Below, piece by piece: positions 14,061-49,579 of a stretch of 64,000 nt of DNA. Origin of the DNA: the human T2T-CHM13v2.0 reference genome, Homo sapiens. The stretch's first letter is position 1. The number at the start of each line of letters is the position of its first letter. The notes below the pieces were generated by a model. It had not been told where the DNA came from. It saw only the letters and a program-made list of their open reading frames with translations, and did no database searches. The stretch lies in the NCBI RefSeq assembly GCF_009914755.1, contig NC_060930.1, one strand, 5' to 3'. The translations under genes and the position numbers were made by a program.

Positions 14061-17000
14061 GGAGTCTATTGAGCTTGATAAGCTATGGAAAAAGGAGTAT
14101 GGTGAGAGGAAATGCAGGCTCTCTCAGCTGGGGACCAGCAGAAAAGTGGAGGGGAAAACAGCTGATGTGCTGCATACCTGGATAGTTGTCTCAACTTGAT
14201 GGGGAGAAATGCTCCTTGTTCAGATCTGTCACCTTGGTACATAGCGCATCATCTGAGGTAGCAGGTGTTCGATACATATTTGTGGAAGTAAACCTTAACA
14301 TGTATTCCAAGCAAGAACTGAGTTCAGGAAAAGAAACTATGATATGGGCATGAGATGAGTAAGTAATGGCAAAAATAGAATTGAGGCCAAATGTTAAAAG
14401 TTATTGGTATTCAGAGACAAACACTGATTGTATTGCATTTGAGACGCTGAAGGCCTAAAGGAACAGAGAAACCACTGAGAACCACCTGCTAATTTTATGA
14501 GGGAAGAAAGTGAACCAGAGACAGGTTAAGTTCTTTTCCAAAGCATAAATAGCTAGTTAGGGGAAAAGAAGGAATTTGCACCTGGAAATGCCAATTTAAA
14601 ACTGGAATAAGAACAAAAAGGCCAGCATCCTACCCTAGTCCCAGAGTGAAGAGAGCCTTGGCTTTACTTGCAGTAGAACTTGTTCAAGTTCCAGCTCAAA
14701 TTCCTTTGTGACGCCAGACAAGTCCTATAGGGTTTTCACTTCTTGTATTATTTAAAACGTTTGGAGGATAATAATAACTACCCCCATTCCATCACAAAGT
14801 TTTTAGGAAAATCTGTGAGATAGTATGTCAAAAGATTGTAAAAAATTAAAAAATTTGCAAGGGTAAATTATTTTGAATGTCTTTTAGTATTTAGACAAAA
14901 GGTTTCACTTTTTATAGTATAATTTTCCTTTGTTGTTATTATCATACAAAATCTGTGTCAGAACAAAAAACATTTTTTCAATGTATGCTATTAAATCTCA
15001 AGTGATAAAGAATATGCTTGTGGTTTACACAGATTCACGTTAAAAAACAACTTCATGAAAATAATATTCTGCCTGCCAATCACATGGCAAGTCTTGTTTA
15101 GATAAGGTTTTACATTTTTTCTTTTTTCTATTTACATTCTTTCTCATTTATCTATATGCATATGGTTATATGTACAAGTTTATCTTTAGTTTCAAGTGTG
15201 GCATCTTGACAAGTTTTATTGCCTGCTGGAAAGGTAGGGTGAATAGATTTTGAAGAATCCTAATGACTTTTCCTCTTAGGGAAGCAAAAGACTGTAGATA
15301 ATGGGTTCAGAGCTTTCCTTTACAGGGACTTTGAGTTATTGTTGTTGCTACTATTTCAACTAGGAGGAAAGGACATTGTGAAAAGAGGTGTTTCAACTTT
15401 CTCATTGGGAATGTTGATGAAAGAGTTGATTCTCCTCCAAAGAAAAAAAAATGGGAAAGGGGCAAGGTGGTGAAATAACATTGGCAGACAGATGAATAGC
15501 TGGCAATTGAAACCTAAATATGGAAAATAACCCAGGCAGCTAGCTACCTTGAAGGAAAATTATGTAAACAAACTTGAATTTGAAAGAGAAAAATGCTAAA
15601 TACATTCTGAGAGGTCCTAAGAAAATAGGAAATAGCCCAATAGAAATCCTGAGAAAATCGAAATCAGAAGTATGTCTAATGATTATAAATCGAAGAACAA
15701 AACACAGGGTCCCCGAGACTAGCAGGGTTATATATATGGTAAGAGTTTTGGGTAGCAAAATCATGGGGAATATGGAAATGTCTGAATGGCATGGACGAGG
15801 GTGCAGATTATGTTAAAATATAATGAGAAGCCTCTAGAACTAGAATATCAAAGAACGGTGATTTACCCACCAAAGATAATGGTTTAGGAAGAAGATTGAC
15901 ACCATAAACATTCTTAGAAAAACTAAATAATGGAATCAAAACACTAAGAGAAAAGAGAAGACAACTAATAAGCAAGGAAAGACAGACAAATTAGAAAATG
16001 GAAAAATAAGGGAGAAATAATATAAGGAAAATCATCCATCATGGATAGTTGTTTGGTCTGGTTTGGTAGTATGTTTGCAGGTTTGACATTTTGTACATAT
16101 TTTTAAAACTAGATAGCTAATTATAATGGAGGTGAGAGGAAAAGATGAAAATAAAACCGAATATAATCTAAAGACATAAAAGAATTTTAAAAAATAAATG
16201 TAAATAATATTGAAGAAGTTTCTCCAATACCTAAGAGGAGAGTCTTCTTGTAACTCCATACATTTCTATGAAAAGGAGGAAGAAAGCTGCTTTGTATGAA
16301 GCATAGGCATTTTCCTACTTTAAACCTATAAGGAAATTTGGATGACCACAAACTATAAGTTTTTTAAATGACTAGGATATAAAAGGAGAAAGCCCAAAGC
16401 AACTTGTGGGTGATGGTTTTAATATCTAATACTTACCACATGTTAAGTTCATCTCTGCTCCAAAGAGTTTTAAAAATACTAATATATAGAAGTATCATAT
16501 AAAATTATTTTACTATTTGTGTTTTTATTTAAATAATCATATTTCTGTCAATATTGATATTTAAGCTATCAAATATTGACTTTTTATATCATCAGAGAAA
16601 TGTCACAGGACACTCAGAAAGTAGTTTTATAAAACTTTCTAGTACAAGAACTTTTGTCGAACCATCAAGGGAAATAATGGTAGATTAAAAATTATTTTGC
16701 CCCTGGCTTTCATTAGTGCCTAAAAACCCAGGCCCAAGTGTCAACTGATGCATTACCATCAGATTATTTACTTCACAGATCAGTGACTAAGTTTATTTGA
16801 GTCCGATTTTCATGGAATAGCATGGATTTTTTGTTTTATTTTTAAATCTGATAAGTATAAGCTTACAGGTGTACCTGTTTCCTGCTGTTCTGAAAACGTG
16901 ACCAGGCTCTCTCTGTGACAGGATCACACCACAGCTCGTAGCCACTCTGTGCAATAATCTGCAGATGATAACGCCTTTGCAGAGCAGACCTGCACGTGTA

Positions 17001-41275: not shown

Positions 41276-43067
41276 AGAATCTGTTTTTGTATCTTATCTG
41301 TAGATACCAGATGTGTTTAAAGAGATAAAGGTAGTAGGGAGAAAATAACTTTTAAAGTTCCATTTACATTAAAAACTTTTTGAATCATCTGTACTTGAAA
41401 TGTGGCTATGAACTATTTGTGACTGTGGTAATATATAGCAGTATAATTATCCAAAATGACTTTTCTCAAGGCTAGAATCCATCTCCAGTGGCATCTACAA
41501 TACCCATAATTTAAAGCAGCTCTGAATTTTTTTTCTAGGTGTGCAATGTTCAAGATTTGAGGAGGACCTTCCTAATTCTAGGACTTAGTAGAAAAGTCAG
41601 TGTTCACTTTTCTATATATTCCCTTAATAATTTTATAAACTTATGTAATTCGTCCTTATAGTTATTTTTATTTAATAGACTTAAACATGTCATACTTTTT
41701 CCATTTATATAAATGTATTTATAAGATTTTTGTTTATATCTTTGCAGTCATTTTATACATATTATGTAGCTGATGTACATTTATGATTATATTAGATCTA
41801 TAGTATCTTGAAACTTTATAATAGCTATTTACTCATATCAATAAAATTGATAAAGATATAATTTTAATTGCTGCATATTTCATAATATGGATCTGCTATA
41901 GTTTATTTAACCACTCTGCTTTGTTATAAAAGGGTTAGTTCTTTCTGACCTTTTGTTATTTTAAATAGTGCTATGATTAATTTATTTGTTCAGGAATTTT
42001 TTACTTTCTCTTTTACTAACTTCTTAGAATGAATTTCAGACAGTGAAAATACTGGTTCAAAGATATTTTCCCCATTGGTTTAGGATGTTTCTTTCATCAT
42101 ATATTAGGTTCTTATATATTACAGTCAACACCAGGCCTATGTATTTTGTTACATCAATCTGTCTACTGATTTTAGCACCATATTAAATTTTATATAAAGT
42201 TTTAATACCTTATAACATAAGTTCTTCCCTAGCTACTCTTTTTCAAACTTCTTAAAACATTTTGTCCCCAAATATTCTTGACTAAGTTTGTCTCTTTATT
42301 CTTCAAAATGAAGTTTACAAAATTTTTAATGTCATAAATTTATACCTTGTGAAATTTTATTGGACTTGAATAAATGTATAAATAACTTTGGGAAGAATTA
42401 ACATATTTCATGTTTCGGGCACTTCCAAGATGGCCGAATAGGAAGAGCTCCAGTCTACAGCTCCCAGCATGAGTGATGCAGAAGATGGGCAATTTCTGCA
42501 TTTCCAACTGAGGTACCGGGTTCATCTCACTGGGGCTTGTTGGTCAATGGGTGCAGGAAAGGGGGTGCAGCCCACCGAGCATAAGCCAAAGCAAGGTGAG
42601 GCATTGCCTCACCTGGGAAGTGCAAGGGGTCAGGGAATTCCCTTTCCTAGCCAAGGGAAGCTGTGACAGGCGGCACCTGGAAAATCGGATCACTCCCCGC
42701 CTAATACTGCGCTTTTCCAATGGTCTTAGCAAAGGGCACACCAGGAGATTATATCCCGCAGATGGCTTGGAGGGTCCCATGCCCGTGGAGCCTCGGTCAT
42801 TGCTAGCACAGCAGTCTGAGATCAAACTGCAAGGTGGCAGTGAGGCTGGGGGAGGGACGTCCGCCATTGCTGAGGCTTGAGTAGGTAAACAAAGTGACCT
42901 GGAAGCTCGAACTGGGTGGAGCCCACCGCAGCTCAAAGAGGCCTGCCTGCTTCTGTAGACTCCACCTCTGGGGGCAGGGCATAGCTGAACAAAAGGCAGC
43001 AGAAACCTCTGCAGACTTAAATGTCCCTGTCTGACAGCTTTGAAGAGAGTAGTGGTTCTCCAAGCAT

Positions 43068-43256
43068 ACTGGTTGGTATGCTTGTGGTGAAGGATTTCTC
43101 TTGGTTGGTGGGTTTAATGTGTTATAGTTAGTCAAGGTATTCTAGTTCTTGCTTGTAAGCATGTTTGCAAGGTGATTATTGTGAGACTTGGTTTTATACG
43201 TACTATGTACAGTCAAGCATTTATAGTACTATATAATATTCATGGTGGCTAGCAGT
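43068..43256 (-). other. NUMT: mitochondrial control-region (D-loop HVS-I/ETAS) fragment inside the L1 5'UTR
   Basis: Reverse complement reads ACTGCTAGCCACCATGAATATT...TAGTACGTATAAAACC...CATGCTTACAAGCAAG...AACTATAACACAT...ATACCAAC, colinear with recalled human mtDNA ~16103-16285; L1 sequence is continuous on either side. Confidence 0.92.
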
Positions 43257-43626
43257 TTGAGATCTGAGAACAGACAGACTGCCTCCTCAAGTGGGCCCCT
43301 GACGCCCAAGTAGCCTATCTGGAAGGCACCCCCCAGTAGGGGCAGACTAACACCTCACACGGCCGGGTACCCCTCTGTGACAAAGCTTCCAGAGGAATGA
43401 TCAGGCAGCAACATTTGCTGTTCAGCAATATTTGCTGTCCTGCAGCTTCCACTGCTGATACCCAGGCAAACAGCATCTGGAGTGGACCTCCAGCAAACTC
43501 CAACAGACCTGCAGCTGAGGGTCCTGACTGTTAGAAGGAAAACTAACAAACAGAAAGGACATCCACACTAAAAACCCATATGTACGTCACCATCATCAAA
43601 GACCAAAGGTAGATAAAACCACAAAG

Positions 43627-44676
43627 ATGGGGAAAAAACAGAGCAGAAAAGCTGAAAATTCTAAAAATCAGAGCACCTCTCCCCCTTCAAAGGAACGCAG
43701 TTCCTTGCCAGCAATGGAACAAAGCTGGATGGAGAATGACTTTGATGAGTTGAGAGAAGAAGGCTTCAGATGATCAAACATCTCTGAGCTAAAGGAAGCT
43801 CGAACCCATTGCAAAGAAGCTAAAAACCTTGAAAAAAGATTAGATGAATGGCTAACTAGAATAACCAGTGTAGATAAATCCTTAAATGACCCGATGGAGC
43901 TGAAAACCATGGCACGAGAACTACGTGACAAATGCACAAGCTTCAGTAGCCAATTCGATCAACTGGAAGAAAGGGTATCAGTGATTGAAGATCAAATGAA
44001 TGAAATGAAGCCAGAAGAGAATTTTGGAGAAAAAAGAGTAAAAAGAAATGAACAAAGCCTCCAAGAAATATGGAACTATGTGAAAAGACCAAATCTACAT
44101 CTGATTGGTGTACCTGAAAGTGATGGGGAGAATGGAACCAAGTTGGAAAACACTCTGCAGGATATTATCCAGGAGAACTTCCCCAACCTAGCAAGCCAGG
44201 CCAACATTCAAATTCAGGAATTACAGAGAATGCCACAAAGATACTCCTCGAGAAGAGCAACTTCAAGACACATAATTGTCAGATTCACCAAAGTTGAAAT
44301 GAAGGAAAAAATGTTAAGGGCAGCCAGAGAGAAAGGTCGGGTTACCCACAAAGGGAAGCCCATCAGACTAACAGCGGATCTCTTGGCAGAAACTCTACAA
44401 GCCAGAAGAAAGTGGGGGCCAAAATTCAACATTCTTAAAAGAAAGAATTTTCAACCCAGAATTTCATATCCAGCCAAGCTAAGCTTCATAAGTGAAGGAG
44501 AAATAAAATCCTTTACAGACAAGCAAATGCTGAGAGATTTTGTCACCACCAGGCCTGCCCTAAAAGAGCTCCTGAAGGAAGCACTAAACATGGAAAGGAA
44601 CAACTGGTACCAGCCACTGCAAAAATATGCCCAATTGCAAAGACCATCAATGCTAGGAAGAAACTGCATCAACTAA
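43627..44676 (+). pseudogene. L1 ORF1 (RNA-binding protein), disrupted
   Basis: ATG at 43627 (MGKKQSRK); premature TGA at 43771; residual ORF 43894..44676 with the native stop changed to CAA. Confidence 0.9.
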
Positions 44677-44703
44677 CGAGAAAAATAACCAGCTAGCATC
44701 ATA

Positions 44704-48528
<3,825 letters not shown>

Positions 48529-49579
48529 GCAATGAGAACACTTGGACACAGGAAGGAGAACATCACACACTGGGGCCTGTTGTGGGGTGGGGGGAGGGGG
48601 GAGAGATAGCATTAGGAGATATACCGAATGTAAATGACGAGTTAATGGGTGCAGCACACCAACATGGCACATGTATACATATGAAACAAACCTGCACATT
48701 GTGCACATGTACCCTAGAACTTAAAGTATAATAATAAAAAAGAAAGAAAAACATATTTCATGTTTCATTTTCCATGAAATATGGTATATTTCTCCATATC
48801 GTAAAACCTTCTTTTATAGCTCAGTAAATATTTGTTCTCTTAGCATAAACTCAGACATTTCTTGACAAAGTATTACTAGAACTTTTAACAATTAGATTAT
48901 TAGATTTTTATTAGGCCTAATATTTTTATTATGCCTTATAACTGCTTCTTACAAGCATATTTTATTAATTATTAGCTTATCTTGGATTTTGTCAAAAGAA
49001 AATCATATTATATACAAATTACATTATTAATTCAATGACAAGTAAGTATCTACTATGTGTCAGCCAAACTTAATAAGCACTGAGAATACAGTACTGAAGC
49101 AATCAAAAAATGAAAAACAACAAAAAGACCCAAAACAGATTATGGAGGTTATAGTTCCAGCAGGAGAGAAGAGCAATAAACCAAATTTTACAAAAATAAT
49201 GTATAAACTAGGATAAATGGTGCTTAAAGCAAAGGAAGAACAATTGAGCAGAGAAGAGGCATATAAAATAACAAGAGTGGGTGTTGAAATTTTTGGAGTA
49301 GAGGGCCTCACTAAAAGAGTAACTTCTGACTAAGGAACTCAGAGCAAATCTGAAACAGAATAGTCATATATAAAATATTTTTAATGTAATGAAAGATCAG
49401 ATTTTGGAGGTTCTTATGGATGGTATTTAGAGTTTTTACTTGGAGTGATTTGGGGAGATGTTGGATGATTTTCAGCATAAAAGTGGCATGAGATGCCATA
49501 GATTCTGTGGTTCTGACTGTGTTAAGACCAGATTTAAAAGGACAGAAGTAAGACCAGTTGGAAAGTAGAGTAGAAGTTG

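What the first reader, a model, noticed from the sequence alone, without database searches (positions are those of the whole stretch)
43068..43256. Mitochondrial D-loop fragment embedded in the 5'UTR promoter of a full-length L1
Seen: the L1 5'UTR breaks after '...agtggttctcc' and resumes at 'agtttgagatctgagaac', with ~185-190 bp of non-L1 DNA between. Its reverse complement has exact 16-nt anchors of the mtDNA control region: AGCCACCATGAATATT (43235-43250) and CATGCTTACAAGCAAG (43148-43163). By eye only about 46/60 nt match recalled human mtDNA over the first 60 nt. Inference: a fossil of an ancestral ape D-loop whose maximum age is set by the L1PA5-like host (roughly 20 My). Repeat masking would probably hide it inside the L1 annotation. 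It could serve as a dated outgroup for hominoid HVS-I evolution.
Basis: partly seen in the sequence, partly recalled or inferred. Interest (0 to 1): 0.85.

Follow-up and report, generated by a model that had tools for sequence, protein, structure and literature searches.

The report
Known mitochondrial DNA fragment inside L1
A 189-base piece of the mitochondrial control region really does sit inside an old, dead L1 retrotransposon on human chromosome 6, but it is already listed in a published catalogue of such fragments and is ordinary.

Summary
Window 43068-43256 is a nuclear mitochondrial DNA segment (NUMT) from the 5' part of the control region (HVS-I), lying on the minus strand inside the 5'UTR of a full-length L1 (42417-48749, 17-bp target-site duplications). 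All 19 other L1 copies compared run straight through the break. In five same-genome relatives of the insert it lies about 80 bp after tRNA-Pro, in the order tRNA-Glu, cytochrome b, tRNA-Thr, tRNA-Pro. The junctions show 1-6 nt of microhomology, loss of at most 5 L1 bases and no duplication, so the fragment was captured by end joining into an L1 already in place.

It is not new. A 2026 pangenome NUMT map lists it as numt_717, chrM:16102-16282, chr6:126585072-126585256, minus strand, fixed, present in GRCh38. The L1PA4/5-like host and the age limit of roughly 15-20 My are plausible but rest on indirect estimates. No primate mtDNA or orthologous loci could be examined.

One extra point: the mitochondrial end of the insert lies within a few bases of the mapped 3' end of 7S DNA (16105/16106). 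Four other independent NUMTs in this genome start within about 8 nt of that position, and all five run into the D-loop. This fits the published enrichment of NUMT breakpoints in HV1 and TAS2.

The parts
42400..42416 (+). 5' target-site duplication of the L1 (AACATATTTCATGTTTC)
   Evidence: Read directly; the identical 17-mer follows the poly-A tail.
42417..43067 (+). L1 5'UTR, part upstream of the insert. The L1 starts at GGGCACTTCCAAGATGGCCGAATAGG.
   Evidence: The stretch 42860-43067 is 95-97% identical to 19 other L1 copies.
43068..43256 (-). NUMT: mitochondrial control-region (HVS-I) fragment, catalogued as chrM:16102-16282. The junction bases 43066-43067 (AT) and 43251-43256 (AGCAGT) could come from either L1 or mtDNA.
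   Evidence: homology to NUMTs with mitochondrial gene order. (catalogue row numt_717, chr6:126585072-126585256 = window 43072-43256).
43061..43084 (.). Perfect 9-nt inverted repeat CAAGCATAC / GTATGCTTG with a 6-nt loop, spanning the L1/NUMT junction
   Evidence: An inverted repeat of 9 nt or more across the junction arose in 13 of 20000 shuffles, and one of 7 nt or more in 407 of 20000.
43257..48749 (+). Rest of the L1: end of the 5'UTR, decayed ORF1 and ORF2, 3'UTR and a short A-rich tail
   Evidence: The longest open pieces are 260-281 aa, so both ORFs are broken.
48750..48766 (+). 3' target-site duplication of the L1

Best explanation
A fragment of about 185 bp from the mitochondrial control region (HVS-I, human chrM about 16102-16286) left the mitochondrion in a germ-line cell of an ancestor. 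It was ligated into a double-strand break in the 5'UTR of an L1 that was already in the chromosome. Repair was by non-homologous or microhomology-mediated end joining: 1-2 nt (AT) are shared at one junction and up to 6 nt (AGCAGT) at the other, at most 5 L1 bases were lost, and no target duplication was made. The result is an inert fossil, now fixed in humans, in an intron of lncRNA LOC102723341. Shown: the identity of the insert, the intact L1 around it, the junction anatomy and the catalogue entry. Inferred: the repair pathway, the order of events and the age.
For: (1) Mitochondrial origin.
- The insert matches 18 other places in the same genome.
- Twelve loci were fetched and scanned with aragorn -mtmam. 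Three (L002, L003, L006) show tRNA-Pro on the complementary strand about 80 bp upstream of the match.
- Three (L002, L006, L010) show tRNA-Glu(c), a gap of about 1.1 kb, then tRNA-Thr. L012 also shows this but has one extra spurious call inside the gap. L002 and L010 also show tRNA-Phe downstream.
- The gap in L002 translates under code 2 to a Pfam Cytochrome_B match, E 8.9e-20. The match therefore lies in the control region just after tRNA-Pro.

(2) Not L1 sequence. In 19 of 19 other L1 copies the flanks lie 5-8 nt apart. None of the 18 other hits of the insert examined has L1 5'UTR flanks.

(3) The host is a complete L1 insertion with 17-bp target-site duplications. So the L1 arrived first as one unit.

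(4) Junctions. NUMT relatives read ...CATTACTGCTAGCCACC... and ...ACCAGTA(T/C)... at the two ends. This places the mtDNA limits at 43066-43068 and 43251-43256.

(5) Independent published mapping. Supplementary Data 3 of PMC13179385, row 567: numt_717.chrM:16102-16282, chr6 126585072-126585256, strand -, source reference, type fixed, present in GRCh38 Yes.

(6) NUMTs are reported to post-date neighbouring retrotransposons: 93 of 103 cases, 10 indeterminate, 0 reversed (PMC3467031, passages).
Against: - No modern mtDNA could be aligned here, because chrM is absent from the held assembly. The chrM coordinates rest on the published table and on nuclear relatives.
- A NUMT lying inside a retrotransposon is uncommon: 10 of 557 in PMC3467031. 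The configuration is therefore atypical, though described.
- The order 'L1 first' is inferred from the intact duplications and from the absence of sister copies, not from orthologous loci.
Confidence: 0.95

Rival explanations
1. The mitochondrial sequence was picked up while this L1 copy was being made. The L1 reverse transcriptase would have switched to a mitochondrial transcript or to 7S DNA and then back. Alternatively the insert was already present in the source L1.
For: On the L1 sense strand the insert has H-strand sense. By general knowledge (recalled), that is the sense of light-strand-promoter transcripts and of 7S DNA. A 9-nt inverted repeat spans one junction, which could hint at template acrobatics.
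Against: Two precise switches would be needed, returning to within 0-5 nt of the point of departure. No other L1 in the genome carries the insert: 0 of 18 other hits are L1-flanked. Published comparative data favour NUMT arrival after the retrotransposon.
Confidence: 0.03
2. The insert was copied from another nuclear NUMT, by templated repair or duplication, rather than coming directly from mitochondria.
For: Other NUMTs cover the same control-region stretch.
Against: The closest relatives are only 84-86% identical over 119-185 bp, and at most 89% over short stretches of 57-63 bp. That is far more divergence than the 3-5% branch length of the L1 around it. The flanks of the relatives are unrelated.
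Confidence: 0.02
3. The segment is a normal part of some L1PA 5'UTR variant, or a chance resemblance to mtDNA.
For: None found.
Against: 19 of 19 L1 copies lack it. E-values to NUMTs with mitochondrial gene order reach 7.5e-46. It has a catalogue entry.
Confidence: 0.005

Closest known systems
numt_717 (chrM:16102-16282) in the pangenome NUMT map, Nat Commun 2026, PMC13179385, Supplementary Data 3
   Same: It is the same object: chr6:126585072-126585256 in T2T-CHM13, minus strand, fixed, present in GRCh38.
   Different: In the parts I could see, the catalogue gives no host repeat, no junction anatomy and no age for it. Its primate-comparison tables (Supplementary Data 8-10) were not held. My limits extend 4-6 nt further at the low-coordinate end of the window (43066-43068 against 43072).
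NUMTs straddled by a retrotransposon (Tsuji et al. 2012, PMC3467031)
   Same: A NUMT lying within a retrotransposon that was there first, flanked by repeat sequence on both sides.
   Different: This is the rare class in that study: 10 of 557 NUMTs within 1 kb of a retrotransposon (passages). I did not see whether this locus is one of the ten.
NUMT breakpoint enrichment in the D-loop, HV1 and TAS2 (Wei et al. 2022, PMC9630118)
   Same: The mitochondrial breakpoint of this NUMT lies in HV1 at the 3' end of the D-loop. Germline breakpoints are reported as enriched in HV1, and tumour NUMT breakpoints as about 4-fold over-represented in TAS2 (passages).
   Different: That study covers recent polymorphic and tumour NUMTs at region level. 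Here the coincidence is at nucleotide level and involves old, fixed NUMTs. That TAS2 covers position 16102 is recalled from MITOMAP, not seen in a call.
numt_850 (chr9, chrM:16100-16479), numt_938 (chrX, 16103-16454), numt_582 (chr3, 16104-16163)
   Same: Independent NUMTs whose low mitochondrial coordinate is within 2 nt of this one and which also run into the D-loop. Their flanks are non-mitochondrial right at the boundary (L005, L007, L009).
   Different: Different chromosomes, flanks, lengths and sequence ages (72-89% identity to this insert). None lies in an L1 5'UTR.

Membership tests
NUMT (nuclear mitochondrial DNA segment) | Colinear homology to mitochondrial DNA | tested here: met
   Homologous to the control-region stretch about 80 bp after tRNA-Pro in NUMTs that carry tRNA-Glu, cytochrome b, tRNA-Thr and tRNA-Pro. 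A published alignment maps it to chrM:16102-16282. No direct alignment to chrM was possible, because it is not in the held assembly.
NUMT (nuclear mitochondrial DNA segment) | Embedded in nuclear chromosomal sequence, with nuclear flanks on both sides | tested here: met
   Both flanks are L1 5'UTR, continuous in 19 of 19 other copies. The locus is in chromosome 6 of T2T-CHM13.
NUMT (nuclear mitochondrial DNA segment) | End-joining type junctions: no target-site duplication, little or no deletion, short microhomology | tested here: met
   At most 5 L1 nt lost; AT and AGCAGT shared at the junctions; no duplication.
L1PA4/L1PA5 subfamily of LINE-1 | Subfamily-diagnostic sequence positions | tested here: inconclusive
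   Primer pair 3 of PMC12432230 (observed targets L1PA4 and L1PA5) matches with 1 mismatch per primer. The L1HS and L1PA3 pairs match with 2-3 mismatches per primer. The L1PA5 5'UTR forward primer has 3 mismatches. No Dfam or RepeatMasker library was available.
L1PA4/L1PA5 subfamily of LINE-1 | Age-appropriate divergence (L1PA6 to L1PA3 lineages placed at 26.8-7.6 My in PMC4083085) | tested here: inconclusive
   The star-tree branch of this copy is 3.8-5.3% at all sites and 2.6-3.1% at non-CpG sites. That is similar to the 16-17 comparison copies. Converting it to years needs a rate I could only recall.
Full-length L1 insertion made by target-primed reverse transcription | Complete 5' end, A-rich 3' end and flanking target-site duplications | tested here: met
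   The 17-bp duplication lies at 42400-42416 and 48750-48766. The element spans 6333 bp, or 6144 bp without the insert.
7S-DNA-derived NUMT (hypothetical class) | One end at the native 3' end of 7S DNA (16105/16106), and the body inside the 7S DNA span | tested here: inconclusive
   The junction lies at chrM 16102-16107 and the body runs to about 16286. The 7S 3' end is mapped at 16106/16105 (PMC4627069). A double-strand break at the same site would look identical. No catalogue row ends at 16758-16763, the main 5' end in doubled coordinates.

The most novel reading that the evidence does not exclude
This NUMT, and at least four other independent fixed NUMTs in the human genome, may descend from the D-loop third strand (7S DNA) with its native 3' end, or from breaks at that replication-termination site. 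If so, the end of the D-loop has been a recurrent, nucleotide-precise source of nuclear mtDNA insertions over tens of millions of years. The five are the loci at chr9:35018326-35018692, chrX:134381539-134381897, chr3:167207093-167207151 and near chr6:43320410-43320614, plus this one. All five begin within about 8 nt of chrM 16097-16105 and run into the D-loop, and none of them exceeds the length of 7S DNA.
Probability: 0.3. Interest if true: 0.5.

Novelty: already known. Interest (0 to 1): 0.18.

Why it matters
As a locus it matters little. It is a fixed, inert, catalogued NUMT in an intron of a lncRNA, inside a dead L1. It is a tidy example of the uncommon 'NUMT within a retrotransposon' arrangement, and the host L1 gives it an upper age bound.

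The more useful point is the side observation. Several old, independent NUMTs share a mitochondrial end at the mapped 3' terminus of 7S DNA, next to coreTAS. If a full breakpoint census confirmed this, it would tie the published regional enrichment of NUMT breakpoints (HV1, TAS2) to a specific mitochondrial DNA end. It would also say something about which mitochondrial molecules reach the nucleus.

Tried and rejected
- Direct comparison with human or primate mtDNA: impossible. The held assembly has 24 contigs and no chrM, and no primate genomes are held.
- Rfam scan of 42000-44500: only two sub-threshold snoRNA-like chance hits, nothing in the insert.
- T2T NUMT catalogue of PMC10671835: the held supplement is cut and contains only the accession list, so a search for the coordinates found nothing. 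This says nothing about whether the NUMT is listed there.
- Supplementary Data 8-10 of PMC13179385 (primate comparison): not in the held text.
- Khan et al. 2006 on L1PA ages: not held under the id I tried. The ages cited come from passages of PMC4083085 and section 4 of PMC12432230.
- Catalogue rows ending at 16758-16763, which would mark a full-length 7S-DNA NUMT in doubled coordinates: none.
- Literature link between NUMT ends and 7S DNA. Searches 'numts' + '7s dna' + 'breakpoints' gave 7 papers. 'numt' + '7s dna' gave 46 papers, of which 25 were listed. None shows the idea in its title or abstract start. In PMC3467031 the passages I saw mention 7S DNA only in a figure legend.
- A maximum-likelihood tree of the NUMT relatives was not built. 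Many relatives cover only 57-140 of the 189 bases, and non-homologous flanks would have entered the alignment. I report motif groups and BLAST identities instead.

Full report
What is at the coordinates.

Window 43068-43256 (T2T-CHM13 chr6:126585068-126585256) is a 189-bp block that interrupts an L1 5'UTR. I fetched 19 other L1 copies from the same genome with the 208 bp upstream of the break (2022 candidates, 40 scored, 19 other copies stored as loci). In 19 of 19, the sequences matching the two flanks of the insert lie 5-8 nt apart. In the 17 of 19 that my anchor motif picked up, the L1 reads ...GTGGTTCTCC CAGCAT GGAGT TTGAGATCTGAGAAC without interruption. The window reads ...GTGGTTCTCC AAGCAT [insert] TTGAGATCTGAGAAC.

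That it is mitochondrial.

The held assembly has 24 contigs and lacks chrM, so I used nuclear relatives as proxies.

- The insert hits 18 other places in the genome at 72-89% identity, with E from 7.5e-46 to 8.4e-8.
- aragorn in mammalian-mitochondrial mode, run on the 12 fetched loci, finds tRNA-Pro on the complementary strand ending about 80 bp before the match in L002, L003 and L006.
- It finds tRNA-Glu(c), a gap of about 1.1 kb and then tRNA-Thr in L002, L006 and L010. L012 shows the same with one extra spurious call in the gap. tRNA-Phe follows downstream in L002 and L010.
- The gap in L002 translates under the vertebrate mitochondrial code to a sequence that matches Pfam Cytochrome_B at E 8.9e-20.

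This is the mammalian mitochondrial gene order, and it places the match in the control region just after tRNA-Pro. The window's own locus matches these relatives only over the insert.

It is already catalogued.

Supplementary Data 3 of the 2026 pangenome NUMT map (PMC13179385) has row 567: numt_717.chrM:16102-16282, chr6 126585072-126585256, strand minus, source 'reference', type 'fixed', genotypable, present in GRCh38. That is window 43072-43256. In the NCBI mask quoted with the finding, 43065-43578 is also unmasked. I could not check the T2T catalogue of PMC10671835, because only its accession list is held. The primate-comparison tables of PMC13179385 are not held either.

The host L1.

- The element runs from 42417 to 48749 on the plus strand.
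- It is flanked by a perfect 17-bp target-site duplication, AACATATTTCATGTTTC, at 42400-42416 and 48750-48766.
- Without the insert it is 6144 bp long, that is, full length.
- Its reading frames are broken into pieces of at most 260-281 aa.

For the subfamily, only indirect tests were possible. The primer pair reported to amplify L1PA4 and L1PA5 (PMC12432230, Table 1) matches with one mismatch per primer. The L1HS and L1PA3 pairs match with 2-3 mismatches per primer, and the L1PA5 5'UTR forward primer with 3.

I also estimated this copy's own branch length from pairwise distances under a star tree, without building any consensus.

| Block | Window span | Columns | Sequences | All sites | Non-CpG sites | Rows dropped for aberrant length |
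|---|---|---|---|---|---|---|
| A | 42417-43067 | 630 | 17 | 5.3% | 3.1% | L014, L018, L025 |
| B | 43257-44756 | 1488 | 18 | 3.8% | 2.6% | L018, L020 |

These values sit in the middle of those of the comparison copies. Passages of PMC4083085 place the L1PA6-to-L1PA3 lineages between 26.8 and 7.6 My. [quoted passage not shown] With a neutral rate of about 0.17% per My, which I only recall from Khan et al. 2006 (not held), the non-CpG branch gives roughly 15-18 My. So 'L1PA4/5-like, about 15-20 My' is plausible, and with it an ape-lineage upper age bound for the NUMT. Neither is demonstrated.

Junctions and mechanism.

NUMT relatives that run through the region read ...CATTACTGCTAGCCACCATG... 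at one end and ...ACCAGTA(T/C)... at the other.

- At the high-coordinate junction, AGCAGT (43251-43256) is the reverse complement of the mitochondrial ACTGCT. It also resembles the L1's own GGAGT (11 of 17 copies) or GCAG variants (3 of 17).
- At the low-coordinate junction, AT (43066-43067) can belong to either partner.
- The L1 therefore lost between 0 and 5 bases, nothing was duplicated, and 1-6 nt of microhomology are present.

These are the marks of capture of a DNA fragment at a double-strand break by end joining. That is the accepted origin of NUMTs. It also agrees with the report that NUMTs post-date neighbouring retrotransposons (93 of 103, 10 indeterminate, 0 reversed; PMC3467031). 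The same paper found only 10 of 557 NUMTs lying inside a retrotransposon, so the arrangement is uncommon but described.

None of the other 18 hits has L1 flanks. This argues against an insert carried by a source L1. The nearest relatives are only 84-86% identical over 119-185 bp. This argues against copying from another nuclear NUMT.

Relative age among the fossils.

In the alignment of all 19 loci the insert groups by shared motifs with L002, L003, L004, L008 and L037 (GCTTACAAGCAAGAACTAG, AATACCTT). L005, L006 and L009 form a second type. L007, L010-L012, L033-L036 and L038 form a third type (GCATATAAGCA, AATAATATATAG). The insert thus belongs to the group that looks youngest, but I could not calibrate this against living mitochondrial lineages.

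A side observation on the mitochondrial breakpoint.

The catalogue maps window 43256 to chrM 16102, so the ambiguous junction bases 43251-43256 correspond to chrM 16107-16102. Jemt et al. mapped the 3' end of human 7S DNA to 16106, or possibly 16105, which is 4-5 nt from the conserved coreTAS motif (PMC4627069, passages).

Own-genome evidence:
- Among the 19 loci that overlap the insert, five have non-mitochondrial flanks beginning within about 8 nt of this point, and all five run into the D-loop. They are this one, L005 (chr9), L007 (chrX), L009 (chr3) and L034 (chr6:43.3 Mb).
- Ten loci run through the point: L002, L003, L006, L010, L011, L012, L033, L035, L036 and L038.
- Four begin elsewhere: L004, L008, L037 and L039.
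- No further mitochondrial sequence or tRNA lies within 1.5 kb upstream of L005, L007 or L009. For L034 only about 400 bp of flank were held.
- Searches with relatives spanning the point gave 3 hits (L002 query, 41 matches) and 2 hits (L012 query, 41 matches) that start within 8 nt of it, and none that end there. About five further BLAST starts lie 19-35 nt upstream. At least one of those (L039) is not a true boundary.

Catalogue evidence:
- NUMT identifiers start at 16100 (chr9), 16102 (this one), 16103 (chrX) and 16104 (chr3).
- None starts at 16105 or 16106.
- Whole-word counts are zero for 16097-16099, 16101 and 16105-16108.
- Two further occurrences of '16102' remain unidentified. They could be one NUMT ending there.

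By my own arithmetic, about 1,054 catalogued NUMTs (774 fixed plus 280 polymorphic, abstract seen) give 0.32 expected starts in a 5-nt window. Three besides this one has a Poisson probability of about 0.004. The window was chosen after the fact.

Against a simple 7S-DNA origin, no catalogue row ends at 16758-16763. A double-strand break at the same termination site would also give the same picture. The pattern fits the published enrichment of NUMT breakpoints in the D-loop and HV1, and of tumour NUMT breakpoints in TAS2 (PMC9630118, passages). Two literature searches showed no paper that ties NUMT ends to the 7S DNA 3' end in its title or abstract start. I have not read those papers in full.

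A small unexplained detail.

A perfect 9-nt inverted repeat, CAAGCATAC / GTATGCTTG with a 6-nt loop, spans the low-coordinate junction. Such a repeat arose in 13 of 20000 shuffles. Its second base, A at 43062, differs from all 17 displayed L1 copies (C in 16, T in 1). At the time of insertion the complementarity may therefore have been only 7 nt, which arises in 407 of 20000 shuffles. It could be chance, or a trace of snap-back pairing during repair.

Verdict.

The object is an ordinary, already catalogued, fixed NUMT. The age and subfamily statements are reasonable but untested against primates. Its claimed value as a hidden, dated outgroup is weak.

Noticed in passing
window 43251-43256; L005:1499, L007:1501, L009:1501 (oriented as); L034 (G000:C6:43320151-43321007): Five independent NUMTs in this genome begin within about 8 nt of the same mitochondrial position (chrM about 16097-16105). 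That position is next to coreTAS and the mapped 3' end of 7S DNA (16105/16106). All five run into the D-loop. No hit ends there.
   Followed up: partly
window 43061-43084: A perfect 9-nt inverted repeat with a 6-nt loop spans the L1/NUMT junction (13 of 20000 shuffles reach this). Its base at 43062 (A) differs from all 17 displayed L1 copies.
   Followed up: partly
e.g. G000:C16:89738765, C2:126247696, C9:90903143, C3:68704369: A second loose cluster of NUMT BLAST starts lies 19-35 nt upstream of the same boundary, in or near the coreTAS region. Only L008 and L039 had their flanks checked, and L039 is not a true boundary.
   Followed up: partly
window 43375-43505 (approximate): The L1 5'UTR carries a stretch of roughly 130 bp that, by my recollection, is absent from the youngest human L1s. 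It may be the element bound by ZNF93 and deleted in young L1PA3 and later families. The identification is from memory only, and no call tested it.
   Followed up: no
window 43065-43578: In NCBI's soft-mask list given with the finding, both the NUMT and the adjoining 320 bp of L1 5'UTR are unmasked. That mask is therefore not a full repeat annotation of this L1.
   Followed up: no
L029 (G000:C24:62359685-62362888) and L030 (G000:C23:154162697-154165900): These two L1 loci, on contigs 24 and 23, give identical BLAST figures and identical junction sequence. This is as expected if they lie in a region shared by the sex chromosomes.
   Followed up: no
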